Shown here: positions 5,751 to 29,493 of the stretch, one piece after another
How the letters are laid out: every line of letters starts with the position of its first letter
How positions within the stretch are numbered: the stretch's first letter is position 1
Source: Chlamydiae bacterium RIFCSPHIGHO2_12_FULL_49_11
GTDB taxonomy: Bacteria; Chlamydiota; Chlamydiia; Chlamydiales; 2-12-FULL-49-11
DNA length: 29,493 nucleotides
Reading direction: 5' to 3'
NCBI GenBank assembly: GCA_001794905.1
Contig: MGLW01000038.1
Coordinates: 1-29,493 of the forward strand
Notes under the pieces: model-generated
Databases searched by the model: none
What the model was told of the DNA's origin: nothing
What the model saw: only the letters and a program-made list of their open reading frames with translations
Translations under genes and position numbers: made by a program

Positions 5751-7115
5751 CTATTTTCGGCAATGGTGCTTTGCGTGCAATGCCTCAAGAGCAGCTTGAA
5801 GTTCGTGATTGATCCGCTCTCTAGCCTCTTTTGCCGACCCTGCCTCTTGTACGATCAGACGCGCATCGATCGGAGGCCCGAACGCGACATGAAGATGCTT
5901 GAACGGCTTGAAAAAGGCGCGTCCCCGCGGCCATGCTTCATGAGTGCCTTTGACTAGGACCGGTACGATGAGGCACGGCACTTTCGTGGCAATTACCGCA
6001 ACCCCTCTTTTGAGTGGAGCAATCCGGTCCTCGGTATTGCGCGTCCCTTCCGGAAAAATCATTACCTGCTCTCCCGCTGCCAGAGATCGGATCACATTTT
6101 TGATCGAGGTCGTGTCTTGCACATTGCCGCTGATAGGGATGCAATTTAACCTGCGAATGCATGCACCGAAAAGAGGGACGCGAAACAAGTAGTCGATCGC
6201 CAAAAAATTCACTTCTTGCGGGCACGAGACGCCGACCGTCGGCGGATCTAGAAAAGAGAGATGGTTGGGAGCGATGATGGCCGCTTTTCCTTGCGGGTAA
6301 TTTTCCTGCCCTGAAACGGTAAGGCGGAAAAAACATTTGAAAAAGAGACGGGAAAAGGAAAAACAGATGCGATAAAAAAGTGTTCCGTGGCTATGCCCTT
6401 CCCCGAGAAGTTTGAGCCAAAAAGGGCGCACTACGGTTCTTTTTTGGGCACGGCGCACATAAAACGTCATCTCGCGAATCACCTGTTTGATATTGAAGCC
6501 GGTTGAATCGATTTCAAACGCGTCGAGAGGTTTTTTCAGAGGGGCGATTTTCCGGCTGATATCACGCTCATCACGCCGGAGCACATCCTTCAGCACCTCG
6601 GAGAACTCATATTTCACATCGGGATGGAGAATTTTCAGTTCGGCAAAACGTCTCTCTGCACGCACGCGCGGATCGGCAATGAGATAAAATTTCACGGTCG
6701 CATTCGGAAACACATTGGTACCGATGTCTCTTCCTTCCACCACGACATCATAACCCAAGGCGACCTCGTGCTGGAGCCGGTTCACTCGCTCACGCACCTG
6801 TGGGAAGACGGCAATTTCAGAAGCCAGGTGGCCGATCCCTTCCTGCTGCAAGAGCTCTTTGGCAACTTCTTCTCCGTCAAGCATCCAGAGCAGGCGACTT
6901 CCCACAAGAGAAAACCCGAGTTGCATTTTCTCAAGACATTCCACAATCGAATCCCGATCGACCGTTTCGGTGACGGCATTCATTTGTCGGTAACGGGTTG
7001 CAACGATCCGGTATAACATGCCCGAATTGAGATGGACCATTTTCAATTTCGCCGCAAGCATTCTTGCAACGGTAGATTTGCCCGAACCTGACGGGCCGTC
7101 AATGGTAATTATCAT
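5751..7115 (-). CDS. cmk: Fused cytidylate kinase / 1-acyl-sn-glycerol-3-phosphate acyltransferase (Cmk-PlsC)
   Basis: N-terminal half has ITIDGPSGSGKST, VEGRDIGT and RDERD (Cmk). C-terminal half has NHLSFLD (HX4D) and IFPEGTR (PlsC). Single 454-aa ORF. Confidence 0.93.
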   Translation of the reverse strand: MIITIDGPSGSGKSTVARMLAAKLKMVHLNSGMLYRIVATRYRQMNAVTETVDRDSIVECLEKMQLGFSLVGSRLLWMLDGEEVAKELLQQEGIGHLASEIAVFPQVRERVNRLQHEVALGYDVVVEGRDIGTNVFPNATVKFYLIADPRVRAERRFAELKILHPDVKYEFSEVLKDVLRRDERDISRKIAPLKKPLDAFEIDSTGFNIKQVIREMTFYVRRAQKRTVVRPFWLKLLGEGHSHGTLFYRICFSFSRLFFKCFFRLTVSGQENYPQGKAAIIAPNHLSFLDPPTVGVSCPQEVNFLAIDYLFRVPLFGACIRRLNCIPISGNVQDTTSIKNVIRSLAAGEQVMIFPEGTRNTEDRIAPLKRGVAVIATKVPCLIVPVLVKGTHEAWPRGRAFFKPFKHLHVAFGPPIDARLIVQEAGSAKEARERINHELQAALEALHAKHHCRK

Positions 7116-15125: not shown

Positions 15126-15584
15126 TTACATGGCTTCGAACGAAGAGATCAGCGGAGCTGATTTCTTGCTTAAGTAATTCTCTCTGTACCCGTTAACGTC
15201 GTTCTCATGGATCACCCATGCGGCACCTTTGCGTGTTGCTTTCATCAGACCGATCCGCGTAGCATAATACACTTTTTGTGCAGGAATGCCCAACATTTTT
15301 GCTACCTGATTCACAGAGAAATACCCTTTTTTGTTATCAAAAATGAGTTCACCGTTAAAGGTTGATTTTGTACGAGAATACTTATTTTGCGTATAGTCAT
15401 CAAGATCCTTGATATCTATAACCCACTTAGTATCTTGCTTATATGCGCGCAGCTTTTTTTGCTTTATCGCGACATAAATCGCCTGCCGTGTCACATTATT
15501 GAGGCGAGCTGCTTCCGTAATAGAAACAACCTCTTTACCATCAATGATCTGTGAGTTGGGCGATCTTTTTTCTTCTTGTCCCAT
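15126..15584 (-). CDS. euo: EUO, chlamydial developmental transcriptional repressor (two excisionase-like HTH domains)
   Basis: VSITEAARLNNVTRQAIYVAIKQKKLRA and YFSVNQVAKMLGIPAQKVYYATRIGLMKATRKGAAWVIH; adjacent to recJ as in Chlamydia. Confidence 0.93.
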   Translation of the reverse strand: MGQEEKRSPNSQIIDGKEVVSITEAARLNNVTRQAIYVAIKQKKLRAYKQDTKWVIDIKDLDDYTQNKYSRTKSTFNGELIFDNKKGYFSVNQVAKMLGIPAQKVYYATRIGLMKATRKGAAWVIHENDVNGYRENYLSKKSAPLISSFEAM

Positions 15585-17769: not shown

Positions 17770-19269
17770 ATGAGAGTAAGAACTCGCATTGCCCCTTCGC
17801 CTACCGGTCATCCCCACGTCGGGACGCTTTATATGGCTCTGTTCAACTCTATTTTTGCCGCGCATTACGGCGGCGACTTTCTTCTCCGCATCGAAGATAC
17901 CGACCAGACCCGGTCCAGGCCTGAATTCGAAGAAAGCATTTATGAGTCGCTCCGGTGGATCGGCCTCACATGGCAGGAAGGTCCCGATGTCGGTGGTCCT
18001 TTCGGCCCGTACCGCCAATCGGAGCGCACTGACATTTATCGTAAACATTGTGCTGACCTCTTGAGAGCCGGCAAAGCATACAAGTGCTTCACAACCGCCG
18101 AAGAACTGGAAGAGATCCGCCTCGTATCACAGAAAACGGGACAAAAAATCGGCTATGATAGGCGGCACCGCAACCTCACCGAAGAAGAAATTAACGCTTT
18201 TGAATCCGCCGGTCGTCCTTTCGTGCTCCGCCTCAAAGTTCCTCTTTCGGGAGATGTAGAATTTACCGACCGCATCAAAGGGAAAATTTCAGTTCCGTGC
18301 AAAGATGTCGACGACCAGGTCCTTCTTAAATCGGATGCGTTCCCTACATACCATCTTGCCAATGTCGTCGATGACCACGAGATGCAAATCACCCATGTGA
18401 TCCGCGGCGACGAATGGATTTCCTCCACCCCGAAACACATCCTTCTCTATCAGGCCTTCGGATGGAAGCCGCCCGAATTCCTTCATATGCCCCTCCTTCT
18501 CGGTCCTGACGGGAAAAAACTGTCCAAACGCAAAAATCCTACCTCGGCCTTCTACTACAAGCAGTCGGGATTTCTCCCCGAAGCGTTCCGTAATTTTCTT
18601 ACACTGATGGGCTACAGCATGACGGGAGACCGGGAAATCTACTCTCTCGAGGAAATCATAGCAGAATTTGACCCAAAACGGATCGGCATTTCCGGCGCCG
18701 TGTTCGACATCAAAAAACTCGAATGGCTAAACCAGCAATACCTGATCCGCCTCATTCCCGAAGAGGAACTGTGGCCGCGCATCCGCGAGTGGGGATTCAA
18801 CGACACCTTCATGAAGCGCCTCATGCCGCTGGTACGTACCCGCATCCGCACCTTCGGCGACTTTTTTGAACTCTGTGATTTCTTTTTTACCAGCCACCTT
18901 CCCTGGACAAAAGAGCTGCTTCTCCCGAAAGACACGAGTGAAAAAATGGTCGTCTCCATCCTGCAGTGTATTTTATGGGGGCTGGAAGAAAACGAAAAAT
19001 GGGATCGCACTGCCATTGAAGAAGTTTCGCAGACGGTGGCAAAAGTATTCGACGTCAATCACAAAAAAATCGTAATTCCTATCCTTTTTGCCGTGTTCAT
19101 GGGCAAGCACCAAGGCCCTCCTCTCTACGACTCATTCGTACTACTCGGCGAACATATCACCCGTGCGAGGCTTTTGCAATCAATCCAGTTTTTGGGCGGC
19201 GTTTCGAACACTTTTCAGGCCGAGCTGAAAAAATCGTGGGATGCTCGCTTAGGGCTTCTTGTCAAATGA
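17770..19269 (+). CDS. gltX: Glutamate--tRNA ligase
   Basis: RIAPSPTG..HVGT, LRIEDTD, YHLANVVDDH, THVIRGDEW, KLSKR. Confidence 0.98.
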   Translation: MRVRTRIAPSPTGHPHVGTLYMALFNSIFAAHYGGDFLLRIEDTDQTRSRPEFEESIYESLRWIGLTWQEGPDVGGPFGPYRQSERTDIYRKHCADLLRAGKAYKCFTTAEELEEIRLVSQKTGQKIGYDRRHRNLTEEEINAFESAGRPFVLRLKVPLSGDVEFTDRIKGKISVPCKDVDDQVLLKSDAFPTYHLANVVDDHEMQITHVIRGDEWISSTPKHILLYQAFGWKPPEFLHMPLLLGPDGKKLSKRKNPTSAFYYKQSGFLPEAFRNFLTLMGYSMTGDREIYSLEEIIAEFDPKRIGISGAVFDIKKLEWLNQQYLIRLIPEEELWPRIREWGFNDTFMKRLMPLVRTRIRTFGDFFELCDFFFTSHLPWTKELLLPKDTSEKMVVSILQCILWGLEENEKWDRTAIEEVSQTVAKVFDVNHKKIVIPILFAVFMGKHQGPPLYDSFVLLGEHITRARLLQSIQFLGGVSNTFQAELKKSWDARLGLLVK

Positions 19270-20189
19270 TTCCACGAAAGTTCGGTTTCCTTTGTTTTTT
19301 TTGTACTTCTTGCTTTTATGGTACTCCGATCTTTAAAATTGCCCTCCCCTATTTTTATTATTGCGCCGATAAACCCCTTTCGCCGGCGATTGCAGAAAAC
19401 CGGCTGCGCTTTTTGCAAGAGAAGTTTCACGCCGAAATTCCCGAAGACTCTCCCCCGGCCGCAGATTTCCTCTTTATCCCTTCCTCCGCCATCCGCCCGC
19501 CCGACAAGCGGCAAGGAATTCTTCTTTTTTGCCTTAATCATCCTCTCTTGCGATTCCATTATAAATATTGGAGCAACTACCTCGATGCCGGGGCCGATAT
19601 CATCCTCTGGAACCCGAAAAATGGAATCCAAAATCCCAAAAATTACGCCGCCGTCTTAAAAACCATACTCGAATACACTCGCGCCCATTATCCGCAAGCG
19701 GCGATCTGCCTCCATTCCCACTGTGCCTCCTCTGATCCTGCTATCGCCGCCGTCAGTGAGAAGTGCGACCCTGATATCCACCTCATTATCGACAGGGGCC
19801 ACGGCGATATCTCCTCCCTCGTCCGGTCTTTTCCTCTCGTAGGATATTTTATCGGAGAGGGCAACCTCGACGATTACGATTGTCATGGCATTCACAAAAT
19901 CGGCACCATCCCCGGCAAAATTCTCTCCCTTGTGGCTATGCATGACCAAGTCATGAATTCCGAATCAGGCAATCTCACACGCCGGCTTTCTGAAAGGTGC
20001 CCCCACCAAGAGATGCATGAAATGATTACCGGCGACCACTGGTCCTACTACGACGAAGAAACTTATCTTGTTATGTGCCGTTTCATGGTTGACCTTGGCA
20101 TCTTGCTGCATATCCCTCCCTACCCCGGACCATCCACCTCGTCTTCCTCCTGCCAGGTCCAAAACCTTGCCCGTGTCATCCTTCATTAG
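19266..20189 (+). CDS. Hypothetical protein with probable alpha/beta-hydrolase fold
   Basis: ATG 19266 overlaps the gltX stop (ATGA) and the ORF fills the gap to the next gene. Motif order GADIILWN / ICLHSHCASS / LIIDRG / AMHDQV / GDHW mirrors alpha/beta hydrolases. Confidence 0.6.
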   Translation: MIPRKFGFLCFFCTSCFYGTPIFKIALPYFYYCADKPLSPAIAENRLRFLQEKFHAEIPEDSPPAADFLFIPSSAIRPPDKRQGILLFCLNHPLLRFHYKYWSNYLDAGADIILWNPKNGIQNPKNYAAVLKTILEYTRAHYPQAAICLHSHCASSDPAIAAVSEKCDPDIHLIIDRGHGDISSLVRSFPLVGYFIGEGNLDDYDCHGIHKIGTIPGKILSLVAMHDQVMNSESGNLTRRLSERCPHQEMHEMITGDHWSYYDEETYLVMCRFMVDLGILLHIPPYPGPSTSSSSCQVQNLARVILH

Positions 20190-24667: not shown

Positions 24668-25090
24668 ATGGTACTTGGTTTAGAGGCCCTATTTGGGCGC
24701 AAACAAGATACAACAACACCCGCCTCGCCGGTGGTAGACGTACAAACGCAAACAGTTAAAGCTACGGCAGTGCAATCCGTGGAGGTTGTCAGCAGCAATA
24801 CGGAACATCCGGCGGCTCCTCTCCCTGTGGTGCAGCCATTAGCGACAGAAGTGAAAGGATCTTTGCAATTGGAAACAAAAGAGATGGGAGTGCGGCGCCT
24901 TGAACTTGGTGATTTTTATCTCAAATCGGGACAAAAAGCAACATGGATCAAGGTAGCGTGTTGGGTGCTGACGATTCCGACCCTCGGCCTCTTTGCCGTT
25001 GGTGTTTGGATCGCTCTCCGCATTTATTATTACGTCCACCCGATTCCGGTTCATGTACCCGAAGAAACTCGTCCACCGGCGGCAACGTAA
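24668..25090 (+). CDS. Hypothetical membrane protein, possibly DUF648-like
   Basis: GGAGG RBS; low-complexity T/V/P/Q-rich N-terminus; hydrophobic segment WIKVACWVLTIPTLGLFAVGVWIALRIYYY. Confidence 0.7.
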   Translation: MVLGLEALFGRKQDTTTPASPVVDVQTQTVKATAVQSVEVVSSNTEHPAAPLPVVQPLATEVKGSLQLETKEMGVRRLELGDFYLKSGQKATWIKVACWVLTIPTLGLFAVGVWIALRIYYYVHPIPVHVPEETRPPAAT

Positions 25091-25132: not shown

Positions 25133-25981
25133 ATGAGGCTATTGATTACGCTTGCGACGCTTGGCGCTCTTGGCTACGGAGGATATTGGGCTTATGAAAA
25201 CAAGCCGATAGTGCGTGCAAAGGTGGATATGATCATCGATATGATCCATAACACCGAGTTCCACACGCTGGAGGCGCGGTTCACTCCTGAACAGATCATG
25301 AATGTGTACCGCACCTTGCTTCTCAAAGACGACAAGCACCGTTTCCAGCCGGCAACCACGAAGTTTGCTCCTTATCTCATGATGGAAGTTAAGTACATCA
25401 ATGCGCAAGCAGAGACGATTGAATCGATCATTTTGTGGGACTTGATCGAAGGGGAAATGCTTCTCAATACGACCCAGTGGGAAAAGACGCACGGTTTTGC
25501 CGACTGCATTTTAGCCAACATTCGCAAGAACGAATTCCGTGTGATCAATGCCTTAGCTGAGCGGGGCGGCACACTCGACCGCGAGCATCTCGCACGCATT
25601 TTGCAAGTGGAAAATGAGCAGCTCGGCAACTGGCTTGAAAAGTGCCTTCGCAAAAAACTCATTGTGCAGGTAGGAAATTCATTCCGACTCCATTTGCAGA
25701 AACCGCTTTTGGCCTTCCAGCCTCGCACCAAGATTGATGAGCGCCTTGTGACCAAGTCGCTCCGGAGTAAGGATAAAATCCGGCGCAAATTTTCCGACAC
25801 GCAAGTGCGCCGTGTGGCTGAATCTGCCTTCGGGCCCGATTTTGCCGTCCGCAAGACGCTGATCGTCTACTTGCCCATTTATTGTATTACGGTGGAGAAT
25901 CCGGATGGATCAGTTCACACTTCGCATTGGAATGCGCTTACAGGAAAGGAGATTTCGTTTACCGCTCTCCTTGAACAATAA
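25133..25981 (+). CDS. Hypothetical protein with N-terminal membrane anchor or signal
   Basis: 282-aa ORF that fills the gap between neighbours and has its own promoter; N-terminal hydrophobic stretch MRLLITLATLGALGYGGYW. Confidence 0.8.
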   Translation: MRLLITLATLGALGYGGYWAYENKPIVRAKVDMIIDMIHNTEFHTLEARFTPEQIMNVYRTLLLKDDKHRFQPATTKFAPYLMMEVKYINAQAETIESIILWDLIEGEMLLNTTQWEKTHGFADCILANIRKNEFRVINALAERGGTLDREHLARILQVENEQLGNWLEKCLRKKLIVQVGNSFRLHLQKPLLAFQPRTKIDERLVTKSLRSKDKIRRKFSDTQVRRVAESAFGPDFAVRKTLIVYLPIYCITVENPDGSVHTSHWNALTGKEISFTALLEQ

Positions 25982-26011: not shown

Positions 26012-26022
26012 ATCCTTCAACT

Positions 26023-26112
26023 GGAAAGATGGCCGAGTGGCCGAAGGCGCTTCCCTGCTAAGGAGGTATACCCCGTTAAAGGGTATCGAGGGTTCGAATC
26101 CCTCTCTTTCCG
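26023..26112 (+). tRNA. tRNA-Ser(GCT)
   Basis: Acceptor stem GGAAAGA/TCTTTCC plus G discriminator, D-arm TGGCCGAGTGG, anticodon arm CTTCC-CTGCTAA-GGAGG, long variable arm, T-loop GGTTCGAATCC; CCA not encoded. Confidence 0.96.
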
Positions 26113-26124
26113 AAAGAATTACGA

Positions 26125-27567
26125 ATGAAAAAGGGCGCTAAAACTACTCTGCCGTCAAGGCCTCATGCGATCGAATCGGAAAAGATGGTTCTCGGATGCA
26201 TGCTTTCTTCGAACAAGGCGCTGAACATCGGCTCGGAAAGCCTGATTGCACGGGATTTTTTCCTCTCAAAACACCAGATGATTTTTGACTCCCTCTATGA
26301 GGCGTACCAAGGCGATAAGCCGGCCGACGTGCACCTCATCGCCGAAATTTTACGGCGGAAAAATCAGCTGGACGACGCCGGCGGCTCGCTTTACCTCGTT
26401 GAAACGGCCCAGTTTGCCGGCACTTCCCAATATATCGAAGAGTACATCGAAATCATCCGTAATAAAGCAGTGCTGCGGGAAATGATCGATGCTTCGAAAG
26501 AGATCGAAAAAGCCGCCTATAGCGAACCGGAAGATGTTGATTCCATCCTCGACGATGCGCAGGGACGCCTCTACCAAATCAGCCAGCGCACTAAACAGTC
26601 GACGGGCGTCTCCATAAAAGAGGTCTTGACCGGCATCAAGTCGGAAAAAAAACTCCCTTATCTCAAGGAACTTGAACTTCGTCAAGAAGAATTTCTTACT
26701 CGCGATCCCAACCAGCCTGCAACAGTAGGTCTCCCAACCGGCTTTATCGACCTCGACCGGCTCATCGGGGGCTTCAATCGTTCGAACCTGATAATCTTGG
26801 CAGCGCGCCCCTCCATGGGTAAAACGGCGCTCGCCGTCAATATTGCCGAACATATCGCCATGGAAGCAAAGGTGCCCGTCGGCATGTTTTCCCTCGAAAT
26901 GACCGCCGAGGAACTGGTTCACCGGATAGTCTCTTCCCAGTCGGAAGTGGAATCGGAAAAGATCCGCAACGGTTCCCTGTCCGGCCTGGAATATCAGAGG
27001 ATCGTCAGCGCCGTCAGCCGGCTCCAGGAGTCGGAAATCATCATCGACGACCAGCCGGGGATGAAAATTACTGATCTGCGTGCCCGCGCCCGGCGCCTCA
27101 AAGAGGTGTACAATATCCAATTTTTGGTCATCGACTATTTGCAGCTCCTCTCCGGCGCTCGCACCTTTTACAGTGCGGAAAACCGGCAAAATGAAATTTC
27201 CGAAATTTCACGGATGCTCAAGACACTTGCACGGGAGCTGGAAATCCCTATTTTGTGCCTATCGCAGCTTTCGCGTCGCGTAGAAGAACGTGCCGGCCAC
27301 CGGCCGATGCTCTCCGATCTGCGCGAATCGGGTTCCATCGAACAAGATGCCGATATCGTCATGTTCGTCTTCCGCCGCGACTATTATAACCCGAATGACA
27401 AACCCGGCATGGCGGAAATCATCGTTGCCAAAAACCGCCATGGAGGGGTAGGCGACGCCAAACTCGCCTTCCGCAAAGCCTTTGCTCGGTTCCATAACTT
27501 TGCCAAGCCGCCGTCCGATGAAGAACCGGCAAACGACTCAGCTTTTTCCCACTTTGACGCCGGATAA
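26125..27567 (+). CDS. dnaB: Replicative DNA helicase
   Basis: TGFIDLD, AARPSMGKT, FSLEM, VIDYLQL, LSQLSR, SDLRESGSIEQDAD, IVAKNRHG; no intein. Confidence 0.98.
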   Translation: MKKGAKTTLPSRPHAIESEKMVLGCMLSSNKALNIGSESLIARDFFLSKHQMIFDSLYEAYQGDKPADVHLIAEILRRKNQLDDAGGSLYLVETAQFAGTSQYIEEYIEIIRNKAVLREMIDASKEIEKAAYSEPEDVDSILDDAQGRLYQISQRTKQSTGVSIKEVLTGIKSEKKLPYLKELELRQEEFLTRDPNQPATVGLPTGFIDLDRLIGGFNRSNLIILAARPSMGKTALAVNIAEHIAMEAKVPVGMFSLEMTAEELVHRIVSSQSEVESEKIRNGSLSGLEYQRIVSAVSRLQESEIIIDDQPGMKITDLRARARRLKEVYNIQFLVIDYLQLLSGARTFYSAENRQNEISEISRMLKTLARELEIPILCLSQLSRRVEERAGHRPMLSDLRESGSIEQDADIVMFVFRRDYYNPNDKPGMAEIIVAKNRHGGVGDAKLAFRKAFARFHNFAKPPSDEEPANDSAFSHFDAG

Positions 27568-28815
27568 AAATTTGGGTTTCCCTTGGAGAAGGGGCATGTT
27601 CGCCGAGAACTTCTGTAAACGTTGCAAAAACTGTGTTTTCTGTTCCCCTGTCAACGGACCCTCCACCTTTAAACGAAAAGGTCCGGGAATCTTCTTATTG
27701 TATCCTACCAGTGTCCTAAAAAAAGAGCGGTTCACACGCAGCGTAATGGAACAACTCTCCGGAAGAGCTCGTTTGCAATATGGAAACCAATCACTCATCT
27801 GCGAATCTCCCGTTCTGAACTCGACGCGTGTCCCCCGTGCAATGCACGCCATGTAAAAATAAAACAGCTTTTTCTGTACCATGGGAAGAGCTGTTTTATG
27901 AACATCAAATAGAACTTTTTTGCAAATGCGGGAAACGAGAAAAATGAGAACGCGAATTTCGTTCATTTTACCATTGGGAATACTGATATCCAAAGGAATG
28001 GCAAAAGTCCTTGGTTTTAGGACAACATTGGATTCCCGGTATGCCTTGAGGTAAAGTAGCAATGCCTGAAAATTTCCTTGCGAGATATCGCGTTTCTTCA
28101 TGGGAGAATAAGCAAAGTAAGGATGGGTTAAGGCTCGCATGCGTCTTGAAACATTCGCAAAGCAGAGCGCATCAGCAAAAGGAAGGTGCCGGCTTATTTC
28201 CGTGACTATCTCATCGGGCAACAAGTTGAAAGGATTACGCGTATCATTGGATATCGCAAAATCTCCCGGGCGAAGAAGAGGTATTTCTCTCACTCCGCTA
28301 AGAATGCGGCTCATACGCCACCCCTCTCGAGAAAGAACGAAGAAATGAGCAGGCCATACCTTCATGCCCAATTGAATGATAAGTACTCTGAGTCCGGTGA
28401 GAATCCATTCTATTAAGAAGACCCCCAGTTTCCATGGAATTAACCAGCAGCAAAGGAAAAGAATCAAATCCAATGCAAATACCAAACTAAATCCACCGAG
28501 AATGAGTCCCGCAACACAACAAATGACTCCCACGAGAGAACTAAATTGAATAGTCTTGATGTATAGTCGGAATACGAAATCAGGAGGGTAAGAGCCAGCG
28601 GGGCCGGAAAGTAGTACGACATGATATTGAAAATTTTCTCCGAACATACGGTCAAGAGACCGCGAGTCCGACGCAGGCCACACTGAATAAGCCGCATGCC
28701 GTGCATAGTCCCATGCAAACCGAACCCGATCCGCAAGATGGAAAAAAGCAGTCGCATGCCTCCCCAACAATGTGGTATTCACCACACCTATTGAACTACC
28801 GGTTACCCTTTCCAT
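27538..28815 (-). CDS. F-box domain protein with N-terminal hydrophobic (transmembrane) region; putative host-directed effector
   Basis: PFNLLPDEIVTEISRHLPFADALCFANVSRRMRAL matches the F-box pattern (LP-EI---I---L---D-----VS+-). About 70 mostly hydrophobic residues lie upstream. Exact start is uncertain. Confidence 0.75.
   Translation of the reverse strand: MERVTGSSIGVVNTTLLGRHATAFFHLADRVRFAWDYARHAAYSVWPASDSRSLDRMFGENFQYHVVLLSGPAGSYPPDFVFRLYIKTIQFSSLVGVICCVAGLILGGFSLVFALDLILFLCCWLIPWKLGVFLIEWILTGLRVLIIQLGMKVWPAHFFVLSREGWRMSRILSGVREIPLLRPGDFAISNDTRNPFNLLPDEIVTEISRHLPFADALCFANVSRRMRALTHPYFAYSPMKKRDISQGNFQALLLYLKAYRESNVVLKPRTFAIPLDISIPNGKMNEIRVLIFLVSRICKKVLFDVHKTALPMVQKKLFYFYMACIARGTRVEFRTGDSQMSDWFPYCKRALPESCSITLRVNRSFFRTLVGYNKKIPGPFRLKVEGPLTGEQKTQFLQRLQKFSANMPLLQGKPKFLSGVKVGKS
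27565..28231. repeat. Direct repeat copy A (667 nt), homologous to 28824-29493
   Basis: Collinear by eye with substitutions and two in-frame indels; last 86 nt identical between copies. Confidence 0.92.
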
Positions 28816-29493
28816 GATCCCCGTAAAAATTTAGGTTTCCCTTGGAGAAAGGGCATCTGCTTGGAGTGCTTCTGCAACTCTTGCATACACTGTGTTTTCT
28901 CTTCATCCGTCAACGGGCCTTCCACCTTTAAACGAAAGGGTCTGGGAATCGTATATCCATCTGCTAATGTCCTGAAAAAAGAACGGTTCACTCGCAGCGT
29001 AATGGAACAACTCTCCGGAAGAGCTCGTTTGCAATATCGAAACCAATCACTCATCTCTGAAGCTCCCGTCCTGAACTCGACGCGTGTCCCCCGTGCAATA
29101 CACGCCAGGGAAAAATAAAACAGCTTTAGCTTTTCCTGTTCCAAGAGAGGAGCAGTATTTTGAACATCAAATAGAATTTTTTTGCAAATGCGGGAAATGA
29201 GAAAAATGAGAACTCGAACTTCGTTCCTTTTAGCAATGGAAAGATTAATATCCAGAGGAATGGCAAAAGTCATCGGTTTTGGGACAACATTGGACCCCCG
29301 GCATGCCTTGAAATAAAGCAGCTTTGCCTGAAAATTTCCTTGCGAGATATCTCGTTTCTTCATGGAAGAATAAGCAAAGAAAGGATGAGTTAAGACACGC
29401 ATGCGTTTTGAAACATTCGCAAAGCAGAGCGCATCAGCAAAAGGAAGGTGCCGGCTTATTTCCGTGACTATCTCATCGGGCAACAAGTTGAAA
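28803..29493 (-). CDS. F-box domain protein, paralogue of the adjacent gene; 5' end lies beyond the window
   Basis: FNLLPDEIVTEISRHLPFADALCFANVSKRMRVL followed by a homologous C-terminal domain; frame is open to the window edge. Confidence 0.75.
   Translation of the reverse strand, partial: FNLLPDEIVTEISRHLPFADALCFANVSKRMRVLTHPFFAYSSMKKRDISQGNFQAKLLYFKACRGSNVVPKPMTFAIPLDINLSIAKRNEVRVLIFLISRICKKILFDVQNTAPLLEQEKLKLFYFSLACIARGTRVEFRTGASEMSDWFRYCKRALPESCSITLRVNRSFFRTLADGYTIPRPFRLKVEGPLTDEEKTQCMQELQKHSKQMPFLQGKPKFLRGSWKG
28824..29493. repeat. Direct repeat copy B (670 nt, truncated by window end), homologous to 27565-28231
   Basis: Same manual alignment as for copy A. Confidence 0.92.

What the first reader, a model, noticed from the sequence alone, without database searches (positions are those of the whole stretch)
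27538..28815. F-box protein with an Inc-like hydrophobic domain: candidate membrane-tethered SCF ubiquitin-ligase adaptor
Seen: about 70 mostly hydrophobic residues (about 28332-28545, FSSLVGVICCVAGLILGGFSLVFALDLILFLCCWLIPWKLGVFLIEWILTGLRVLIIQLG...) precede a clear F-box (about 28130-28235). A ~190-aa domain follows that shows no LRR, ankyrin, WD40 or BTB pattern. Known: F-boxes bind eukaryotic Skp1, environmental chlamydiae have expanded F-box families (usually with an N-terminal F-box plus repeat domains), and Inc proteins have long bilobed hydrophobic segments. Inference: an internal F-box behind a membrane anchor could place host SCF on the inclusion membrane, with an uncharacterised substrate-binding fold. 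I do not recognise this architecture.
Basis: partly seen in the sequence, partly recalled or inferred. Interest (0 to 1): 0.72.

Follow-up and report, generated by a model that had tools for sequence, protein, structure and literature searches.

The report
Membrane-anchored F-box protein in a chlamydia
An uncultured soil and groundwater chlamydia carries two tandem copies of an orphan gene that joins a membrane-anchoring hydrophobic segment to an F-box, the module eukaryotic cells use to pick proteins for ubiquitin tagging, so it may pin the host's tagging machinery to the bacterium's vacuole, though none of this has been tested.

Summary
ORF 27538-28815(-) encodes 425 aa. It has an 85-aa N-terminal region, one 66-aa hydrophobic block (residues 86-151), a 45-aa linker and an F-box. 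The F-box scores 26.2 bits against PF00646 (cut-off 20.5, E 7e-6). A 185-aa C-terminal domain matches no Pfam family.

The host genome is a 1.26-Mb Chlamydiota MAG that has a type III secretion export gate. A second copy lies directly upstream and is split over two contig ends. Both copies sit on the opposite strand between dnaB and mnmG. These two genes are adjacent in 12 of 13 relatives of the same family.

Outside the F-box I found no homologue in 1.84 billion representative proteins or in 400 genomes of the phylum. None of 95 other chlamydial F-box ORFs I examined has a hydrophobic block of 40 aa or more upstream of the F-box. A few do carry a single transmembrane segment or a C-terminal tail anchor.

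The F-box plus C-terminal domain is under purifying selection. The N-terminal half evolves near neutrally, but keeps its reading frame, its hydrophobicity and its charged positions.

Best reading (confidence about 0.5): an Inc-like, type III-secreted protein that tethers host Skp1/SCF to the inclusion membrane. Secretion, topology, Skp1 binding and the C-terminal fold are untested; both AlphaFold models were unusable. It is a new variant of known kinds, of moderate interest.

The parts
27538..28815 (-). Whole ORF (copy 1, P0001, 425 aa plus stop)
   Evidence: Its ATG overlaps the stop of the upstream paralogue by 13 nt (28803-28815). Its 3' end overlaps the convergent dnaB by 30 nt (27538-27567).
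28561..28815 (-). N-terminal region, residues 1-85 (candidate secretion signal and cytosolic head)
   Evidence: Both paralogues start MER[VI]TGSS and share FFHL[AV]DRVRFAWD. dN/dS is 1.6, not significantly different from 1. There is no look-alike in the ESM Atlas.
28363..28560 (-). Hydrophobic block, residues 86-151 (2-3 membrane helices)
   Evidence: Kyte-Doolittle block. A 9-residue window shows three lobes with dips at GGFS (about residues 106-112) and IPWK (about 125-133). The paralogue has 16 of 66 substitutions, yet mean hydropathy is 1.81 against 1.84 and all five charged positions are kept.
28231..28362 (-). Linker, residues 152-195
   Evidence: Not hydrophobic. It contains M168, the only ATG between the block and the F-box that both copies share.
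28096..28230 (-). F-box, residues 196-240 (Pfam match 197-229)
   Evidence: PF00646 at 26.2 bits, above the 20.5 cut-off. Six-frame hit at 28129-28227. dS against the paralogue is only 0.07.
27541..28095 (-). C-terminal domain, residues 241-425, fold unresolved; predicted beta-alpha repeats
   Evidence: No Pfam family. dN/dS is 0.45, Fisher p 0.001. The low-confidence AF2 model has strands at about residues 270, 300, 330, 356 and 381 alternating with helices. ESM Atlas leads point to nematode F-box-associated domains at 0.82-0.87.
28803..29492 (-). 3' part of tandem paralogue (copy 2): F-box plus C-terminal domain, running off the contig end
   Evidence: 80% identical to residues 196-420 of copy 1. 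PF00646 at 26.4 bits. Its N-terminal half lies at the end of contig C49, joined by a 38-nt exact overlap. Direct repeats are spaced 1256-1262 nt apart.
26125..27567 (+). dnaB, the conserved flank of the insertion
   Evidence: NF004967 at 698.6 bits. In 12 of 13 relatives of the same family, mnmG directly follows dnaB.

Best explanation
Copy 1, and its tandem paralogue, is a lineage-specific chlamydial effector of the inclusion-membrane (Inc) type that carries a eukaryotic F-box. The proposed mechanism has four steps. (1) The N-terminus directs export through the type III system (inferred). (2) The 66-aa hydrophobic block inserts into the inclusion membrane as a helical hairpin, possibly with a third interfacial helix, leaving the C-terminal 275 aa in the host cytosol (inferred from hydropathy). 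(3) The F-box, held about 45 residues from the membrane, binds host Skp1 and so brings Cul1-Rbx1 to the vacuole surface (inferred from family membership). (4) The C-terminal alpha/beta domain selects what is ubiquitinated there, either host defence factors at the vacuole or bulk proteins for nutrient supply (speculative). Shown here: the ORF, the F-box match, the hydrophobic block, its conservation of hydrophobic character, purifying selection on the F-box plus C-terminal domain, the chlamydial genome with an SctV gene, and the insertion between dnaB and mnmG.
For: The F-box scores above Pfam's cut-off in both copies. There is one 66-aa hydrophobic block. It is one of 14 of 1116 crude ORFs in this genome with a single 40-80 aa block, and several of the others look like classic Incs. 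It meets the in-silico Inc criterion of Dehoux et al. 2011, two transmembrane helices of 15-32 aa with a loop under 30 aa (PMC3048545, passages read). The genome has the SctV export gate (718.5 bits) and secretins. The window carries the chlamydial CT441-type Tsp, and close DnaB relatives are titled Chlamydiota or Chlamydiia MAGs. The start lies upstream of the block: both copies begin MER[VI]TGSS; frame 0 is the best of six frames by codon usage for codons 1-167 in both copies; there is no stop despite 123 differences (simulated P 0.026); the 3 indels are 3, 6 and 3 nt long; and the stop of copy 2 overlaps the ATG of copy 1. Hydropathy and all charged positions of the block are conserved. The F-box plus C-terminal domain is under purifying selection (p 0.0008). 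F-box genes occur in 218 of 401 genomes sampled from the phylum. Other chlamydial F-box proteins with transmembrane anchors exist. A functional precedent is Legionella AnkB, an F-box effector held on the vacuole membrane by host farnesylation (PMC2916131 and PMC5506055, abstracts in the search listing).
Against: Codons 1-195 as a whole show dN/dS of about 1 (Fisher p 1.0), so the N-terminal half, including the hydrophobic block, shows no detectable amino-acid constraint beyond frame, hydropathy and charges. The block is longer than the classic 40-60 aa and has three lobes. Three membrane passes would put the N- and C-termini on opposite sides. Dehoux et al. report that some proteins with bilobed domains do not reach the inclusion membrane. 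Both AF2 models were unusable, with pLDDT 37 and 41, so neither the F-box fold nor the C-terminal domain has structural support. The canonical Trp near the end of the F-box motif (recalled) is Met here. The family is known only from this one organism, so no comparative test beyond the two paralogues is possible. The host is unknown.
Confidence: 0.5

Rival explanations
1. The real product starts at the conserved internal Met168. This would give an ordinary soluble protein with an N-terminal F-box, about 28 aa before the F-box, like most chlamydial F-box proteins. The upstream 167 codons would be untranslated, or a remnant of a fused small membrane-protein gene.
For: M168 is the only ATG between the block and the F-box that both copies share. 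Most of the other chlamydial F-box ORFs I examined have the F-box within about 60 aa of the first start codon. dN/dS of codons 1-195 is about 1. The public gene call for copy 1 (P0002) uses a different start from mine, which shows that the start is uncertain.
Against: The frame is open for 195 codons in both copies (simulated P 0.026) and all 3 indels are in frame. Codon usage favours frame 0 over the other five frames. Hydropathy and charges are conserved. The ATG of copy 1 overlaps the stop of copy 2. Promoter-like hits inside the gene are no more frequent than in shuffled sequence: 5 found against 2.7 +/- 1.6 expected.
Confidence: 0.12
2. It is a membrane-anchored F-box protein but not an inclusion-membrane protein. 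After secretion it would insert into another host membrane such as ER or mitochondria. Alternatively it stays in the bacterial inner membrane and the F-box has no access to Skp1.
For: Hydropathy alone cannot say which membrane. Part of the predicted Incs do not localise to the inclusion (PMC3048545). The three-lobed block is atypical.
Against: An F-box has no known partner inside bacteria (established knowledge of SCF ligases). The genome encodes a T3SS and other Inc-like ORFs. The F-box plus C-terminal domain is under purifying selection.
Confidence: 0.2
3. The two copies are a recent, largely dispensable tandem duplication drifting towards loss, and the domain combination has no selected function.
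For: Overall dN/dS is 0.71, and about 1 in the N-terminal half. It is an orphan family confined to one organism. It is an insertion at an otherwise conserved junction.
Against: Both copies are intact over about 422-425 codons. The C-terminal domain has dN/dS 0.45 (p 0.001). Identical sequence occurs in runs of two different studies, groundwater and soil. High dN/dS is common in host-interaction genes (general knowledge).
Confidence: 0.1

Closest known systems
Chlamydial Inc proteins (inclusion-membrane type III substrates; Dehoux et al. 2011, PMC3048545)
   Same: A large hydrophobic block made of membrane-length helices close together, preceded by a non-hydrophobic N-terminus. It is specific to chlamydiae, in a genome with a T3SS. 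Some predicted Incs carry eukaryote-like domains (macro, TPR-like), according to passages of that paper.
   Different: The block is 66 aa with three lobes, not 40-60 aa with two. It begins at residue 86. No Inc with an F-box is mentioned: 'F-box' occurs 0 times in that paper (listing), and only one general review holds the terms F-box, Inc proteins, Chlamydiae and transmembrane together; both of its 'F-box' occurrences concern Orientia Ank9. Secretion and localisation are untested.
Legionella pneumophila AnkB (F-box effector anchored to the vacuole membrane)
   Same: A bacterial F-box effector held on the cytosolic face of the pathogen vacuole. This is the same proposed logic, SCF at the vacuole surface (PMC2916131 and PMC5506055, abstracts in the listing).
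   Different: AnkB is anchored by host farnesylation of a C-terminal CaaX motif, has ankyrin repeats and is a type IV substrate. This protein has an integral hydrophobic block, no ankyrin match, ends in ...VKVGKS without a CaaX cysteine, and comes from an organism with a type III system.
Expanded F-box families of Parachlamydiaceae (NEX1, NEX2; Domman et al. 2014, PMC4209131)
   Same: Chlamydial proteins with a eukaryote-type F-box, presumed to be effectors acting on host ubiquitination.
   Different: Those families have an N-terminal F-box followed by LRR or TPR repeats. The words 'transmembrane' and 'inclusion membrane' occur 0 times in that paper's main text. Here the F-box is internal, lies behind a membrane anchor, has no repeat-family match, and shows no sequence similarity to anything in 400 genomes of the phylum.
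Single-TM F-box family found here in other chlamydiae (L056 in G002, L123 in G134, two copies in G377)
   Same: The same domain order: an N-terminal region, a hydrophobic segment, an internal F-box (over cut-off) and an uncharacterised C-terminal domain.
   Different: That family has one 20-24 aa hydrophobic segment, not a 66-aa block. It has no sequence similarity to this protein: G000 gives 0 matches with L056 as query, and G002 gives 0 matches with P0001 as query. It is conserved across chlamydial families (E 2e-42 between members of f1 and f32), whereas this gene is an orphan.

Membership tests
F-box domain (PF00646) | Profile match above the curated gathering score | tested here: met
   26.2 bits against a 20.5 cut-off, E 7e-6, residues 197-229. 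The paralogue scores 26.4 bits. The six-frame search gives 29.6 bits, and 0 of 14 control genomes score over the cut-off.
F-box domain (PF00646) | Binding to Skp1 | not testable with these tools
   No eukaryotic Skp1 sequence was available from the sources the complex predictor accepts, so no job was sent.
F-box domain (PF00646) | Three-helix F-box fold | tested here: inconclusive
   The AF2 models have pLDDT 37 and 41. Helices are drawn at residues 201-210 and 213-220, but with no confidence.
Inc proteins | At least two membrane helices of 15-32 aa separated by a loop under 30 aa (Dehoux 2011) | tested here: met
   A Kyte-Doolittle block at residues 86-151 with lobes at about 93-105, 113-124 and 134-149. 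This rests on hydropathy only; no dedicated topology predictor was available. The block is longer than the classic pattern and has three lobes.
Inc proteins | Specific to chlamydiae, with no conserved prokaryotic-function domain | tested here: met
   F-box and F-box-like are the only Pfam families with E below 0.001; the one further row is noise at E 5.7. There is no homologue outside this organism.
Inc proteins | N-terminal type III secretion signal | not testable with these tools
   No predictor or assay was available. The genome does encode SctV.
Inc proteins | Localisation in the inclusion membrane | not testable with these tools
   This needs infected cells; the organism is an uncultured MAG.
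F-box/LRR proteins (FBXL, GALA, NEX1 type) | Leucine-rich repeats after the F-box | tested here: not met
   No LRR family in Pfam at E up to 10. hhalign of the C-terminal domain against this genome's two F-box proteins whose C-terminal parts I read by eye as LRR-like (not scanned against Pfam) gives probability 0.1-0.2%. Only a beta-alpha periodicity in low-confidence models hints at a solenoid.
AnkB-type lipid-anchored F-box effectors | C-terminal CaaX motif and ankyrin repeats | tested here: not met
   The C-terminus is ...SGVKVGKS, with no Cys at position -4. There is no ankyrin match.

The most novel reading that the evidence does not exclude
This is an integral-membrane F-box effector: a chlamydial Inc whose cytosolic tail is an SCF substrate adaptor. 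It would make the inclusion membrane itself a platform for host cullin-RING ligase activity. Together with the single-TM F-box family and the tail-anchored F-box proteins seen in other chlamydiae, it would show that Chlamydiota evolved direct membrane tethering of host SCF at least three separate times.
Probability: 0.35. Interest if true: 0.7.

Novelty: new variant of a known kind. Interest (0 to 1): 0.5.

Why it matters
Bacterial F-box effectors and chlamydial Inc proteins are each well known. A protein that is both would be a direct way to fix host ubiquitin-ligase activity to the pathogen vacuole. So far that arrangement is documented only for Legionella AnkB, which uses a lipid anchor. 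The gene pair is small and can be tested heterologously. The wider pattern noticed here, of several unrelated membrane-anchored F-box architectures in Chlamydiota, suggests a recurrent strategy that surveys of chlamydial F-box families have not described in the papers I could search.

Tried and rejected
- **Structure prediction.** AlphaFold2 on the full length (4-row alignment) gave pLDDT 37. On residues 190-425 (2 rows) it gave pLDDT 41. Both are too poor, so I sent no fold search.
- **Solved structures by sequence.** The single protein and the profile each gave 0 hits at E up to 1 and 10 respectively.
- **ESM Atlas.** The N-terminal 175 aa gave no usable hit. The C-terminal domain gave only sub-0.9 leads to nematode F-box-associated clusters and to generic alpha/beta models.
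- **LRR test.** hhalign of the C-terminal domain against this genome's own F-box proteins with repeat-like C-termini (LRR-like by eye) found nothing.
- **Homologue searches.** The 5.8-billion-protein database returned only the protein itself and P0003. Exhaustive phmmer over 1.84 billion representatives returned only the protein itself and one hit confined to the F-box, P0004. The search of 60 relatives gave 0 hits. In 400 genomes of the phylum, 8 genomes gave one short partial match each, at E 5.8e-4 or weaker, which I read as chance or F-box-only.
- **Sequencing runs.** No RNA holder is listed. The laid contigs were short and identical to the window, so they gave no population variants. They neither confirmed nor excluded further copies.
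- **Complex prediction with Skp1.** Not run, because no permitted Skp1 sequence was available.
- **P0003.** This 472-aa protein has the N-terminus of copy 2, the middle of copy 1 and the C-terminus of copy 2. I considered it as a third copy and judged it more likely an assembly chimera formed across the two exact repeats at 28391-28464 and 28146-28247.
- **Earlier findings of this scan.** Nothing was returned.
- **First motif regex for F-boxes.** It was too strict, so I replaced it with coordinate-based extraction.
Full report
**What is there**

The window is the whole of contig C38 of a 1.26-Mb assembly of 71 contigs, 82% complete. ORF 27538-28815 on the minus strand encodes 425 aa. Its layout is:
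- Residues 1-85: not hydrophobic.
- Residues 86-151: one continuous hydrophobic block, the only one in the protein (Kyte-Doolittle, window 19, threshold 1.6).
- Residues 152-195: a linker.
- Residues 197-229: an F-box. It matches PF00646 at 26.2 bits (cut-off 20.5, E 7e-6). PF12937 scores 22.2 bits, just under its cut-off of 24.3.
- Residues 241-425: no Pfam family at E up to 10.

With a 9-residue window the hydrophobic block shows three lobes, at about residues 93-105, 113-124 and 134-149. A shallow dip lies at GGFS and a deeper one at IPWK.

**Organism**

Four lines of evidence place the genome in Chlamydiota.
- The window carries housekeeping genes that include the CT441-type tail-specific protease model, a 1491-aa fused SecDF and UhpC.
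- The closest DnaB relatives with titled records (59-73% identity) are called Chlamydiota or Chlamydiia MAGs.
- The genome has one FHIPEP/SctV export-gate gene (718.5 bits) and secretin genes.
- A crude scan found 14 of 1116 ORFs with a single hydrophobic block of 40-80 aa. This ORF is one of them, and several of the others have the Gly/Ala-rich look of classic Incs.

Near-identical DNA is held by runs of two studies, labelled groundwater and soil metagenome. One of them may be the source of the assembly.

**A tandem pair inserted at a conserved junction**

The last 690 nt of the window (28803-29492, minus strand) encode a second F-box plus C-terminal domain, 80% identical to copy 1. The matching N-terminal half is 65% identical and runs off the end of contig C49.

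The two contig ends share 38 identical nucleotides. Read together they give a 422-aa copy 2. The overlap lies in the stretch that is identical in both copies, so further copies between the contigs cannot be excluded.

The stop codon of copy 2 overlaps the ATG of copy 1 by 13 nt. Direct repeats in the region are spaced 1256-1262 nt apart and are 82-90% identical.

Upstream of copy 2 on C49 lies mnmG, divergently oriented. Downstream of copy 1 lies dnaB, convergent and overlapping by 30 nt. In 12 of 13 relatives of the same family for which I fetched the DNA after dnaB, mnmG follows dnaB directly on the same strand. The thirteenth stretch ends at a contig end after 4.5 kb without mnmG. The pair is therefore a lineage-specific insertion on the opposite strand.

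**Is the hydrophobic part translated?**

The evidence for translation is:
- Both copies begin MER[VI]TGSS and share a conserved FFHL[AV]DRVRFAWD motif.
- Over codons 1-195 the copies differ at 123 of 576 aligned nucleotides. Neither has a stop, and a simulation of 123 random substitutions leaves the frame open in 2.6% of trials.
- The three indels are 3, 6 and 3 nt long.
- A codon-usage log-likelihood trained on 427 long ORFs of this genome ranks frame 0 first of six frames for codons 1-167 in both copies. The other frames are penalised partly by their stop codons.
- In the hydrophobic block 16 of 66 residues differ. Mean hydropathy is nevertheless 1.81 against 1.84, no charge is gained, and all five charged positions are kept.

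The evidence against is:
- dN/dS is about 1 for codons 1-195 (Fisher p 1.0), and 1.6 for residues 1-85, not significant.
- A Met at position 168 is conserved in both copies.
- Public gene calls chose other starts: P0002 begins at codon 12, and P0003 begins further upstream.

By contrast, the F-box plus C-terminal domain is under purifying selection (dN/dS about 0.45-0.56, p 0.0008). I take the full-length reading as likely, at about 0.8, but not proven.

**The C-terminal domain**

I found no homologue outside this organism.
- The 5.8-billion-protein database returned only the protein itself and a 472-aa hybrid, P0003.
- Exhaustive phmmer over 1.84 billion representatives returned only the protein itself and one hit confined to the F-box.
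- Among 400 genomes of the phylum searched in six frames, 8 gave one short partial match each, at E 5.8e-4 or weaker, which I read as chance or F-box-only.
- No solved structure matched by sequence.

Both AlphaFold2 runs failed, with mean pLDDT 37 and 41, so I sent no fold search. Their secondary structure, which carries little confidence, alternates short strands at about residues 270, 300, 330, 356 and 381 with helices. The ESM Atlas's own model (pLDDT 0.51) resembles generic alpha/beta folds. By language-model features, residues 236-425 sit nearest to nematode F-box-associated clusters at 0.82-0.87, below the 0.9 level at which such hits mean much. Profile comparison with this genome's own F-box proteins whose C-terminal parts I read by eye as LRR-like found nothing. 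The domain is best described as an unresolved alpha/beta repeat. An LRR-like solenoid is a lead and no more.

**How unusual is the architecture?**

F-box matches over the cut-off occur in 218 of 401 sampled genomes of the phylum (G000 included), with more than 1,150 matches in all. They occur in 5 of 22 genomes of the family, counting G000.

I examined 95 F-box ORFs from other genomes:
- The 30 best-scoring loci that the search returned.
- 51 more, chosen from the 150 listed rows because their open frame is about 300 aa or longer.
- 14 from relatives of the same family, 4 of them below the cut-off.

This sample is biased towards strong F-boxes, and it leaves more than 1,000 matches unseen. The results were:
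- 0 of 95 have a hydrophobic block of 40 aa or more upstream of the F-box.
- Four have one segment of transmembrane size upstream of an internal F-box: L018 and L025 (weak, orthologous to each other), L056 and L123.
- Three end in a hydrophobic tail anchor: L019, L027 and L106.

L056 (same family as the window) and L123 (another family) are homologous over their whole length (E 2e-42), and both F-boxes pass the cut-off. Full-length relatives occur twice in G377. The N-terminal and C-terminal modules of this family each occur separately in many other chlamydial proteins: 72 of 401 genomes have some match at E up to 1e-8, and G000 has none.

Membrane-tethered F-box proteins therefore recur in Chlamydiota in unrelated forms. 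The form with a long multi-lobed block was seen only here.

**Literature**

- Domman et al. 2014 (PMC4209131, passages read) describe N-terminal F-box plus LRR or TPR families. The words 'transmembrane' and 'inclusion membrane' do not occur in the main text.
- Dehoux et al. 2011 (PMC3048545, passages read) define Incs in silico and report eukaryote-like domains in some of them. 'F-box' occurs 0 times there (listing).
- No paper in the searched library holds 'F-box', 'Inc protein' and 'bilobed hydrophobic' together.
- Only one general review holds 'F-box', 'Inc proteins', 'Chlamydiae' and 'transmembrane' together, and both of its 'F-box' occurrences concern Orientia Ank9.
- A 2026 review of bacterial ubiquitin effectors (PMC13720258, passages read) lists F-box effectors of Legionella, Agrobacterium and Ralstonia.
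- AnkB anchoring by farnesylation is taken from abstracts in the listing.

Subscription journals are not covered by these searches.

**Verdict**

The main weaknesses are the near-neutral evolution of the N-terminal half, the atypical three-lobed block, the failed structure models and the orphan status of the gene in an uncultured organism with an unknown host. I rate it a new variant of known kinds (an Inc-type anchor joined to a bacterial F-box effector), with confidence about 0.5 in the mechanism and interest 0.5.

Noticed in passing
L056:838-1971(-) (G002), L123:1407-2444(-) (G134), L127 (G377): A conserved chlamydial family with an N-terminal region, one transmembrane-size segment, an internal F-box and an uncharacterised C-terminal domain. 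L056 and L123 match at E 2e-42 across two chlamydial families. Its N-module (residues 1-115) and C-module (160-335) each also occur alone in many other, often very large, chlamydial proteins; 72 of 401 genomes have some match.
   Followed up: partly
L019 (G390), L027 (G160), L106 (G373): Chlamydial proteins with an N-terminal F-box that end in a hydrophobic C-terminal tail-anchor-like segment.
   Followed up: partly
G000 contigs C67 (L004:706-2076-), C31 (L007:148-1644-), C7 (L009:199-1644-), C51 (L008:1498-2022+): Four more F-box ORFs in the same genome. One has an internal F-box at residue 160 (456 aa). Two have an N-terminal F-box followed by what looks LRR-like by eye (not scanned); the C7 F-box scores below the Pfam cut-off. 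One is 174 aa. The C31 gene lies next to an ORF that looks kinase-like by eye.
   Followed up: partly
L003:1465-1503 (end of contig C49): Seen by eye in the sequence: a TTGCAA, about 18 nt, TAAAAT promoter-like pair ends only about 6 nt before the ATG of copy 2, in an AT-rich stretch without a Shine-Dalgarno sequence. The pair may be transcribed as a leaderless mRNA.
   Followed up: no
protein P0003 (from a 58,792-nt contig of another assembly): A 472-aa database protein has the N-terminus of copy 2, the middle of copy 1 and the C-terminus of copy 2. Unitig breaks at the exact repeats 28146-28247 and 28391-28464 suggest an assembly chimera. Uneven unitig depth leaves copy number open.
   Followed up: partly
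window 5751-7115(-): One 454-aa ORF joins a CMP kinase (residues 1-217) to a 1-acylglycerol-3-phosphate acyltransferase domain (residues 265-388).
   Followed up: no
window 15126-15584(-): A 152-aa ORF with an excisionase-family DNA-binding domain lies in the window's lowest-GC kilobase (38% against about 50%), between recJ and the CT441-type protease gene.
   Followed up: no
window 26022-26113(+): tRNA-Ser(GCT) lies directly upstream of dnaB.
   Followed up: no
window 19236-20189(+), 24668-25090(+), 25133-25981(+): Three ORFs of 317, 140 and 282 aa have no NCBIfam match.
   Followed up: no
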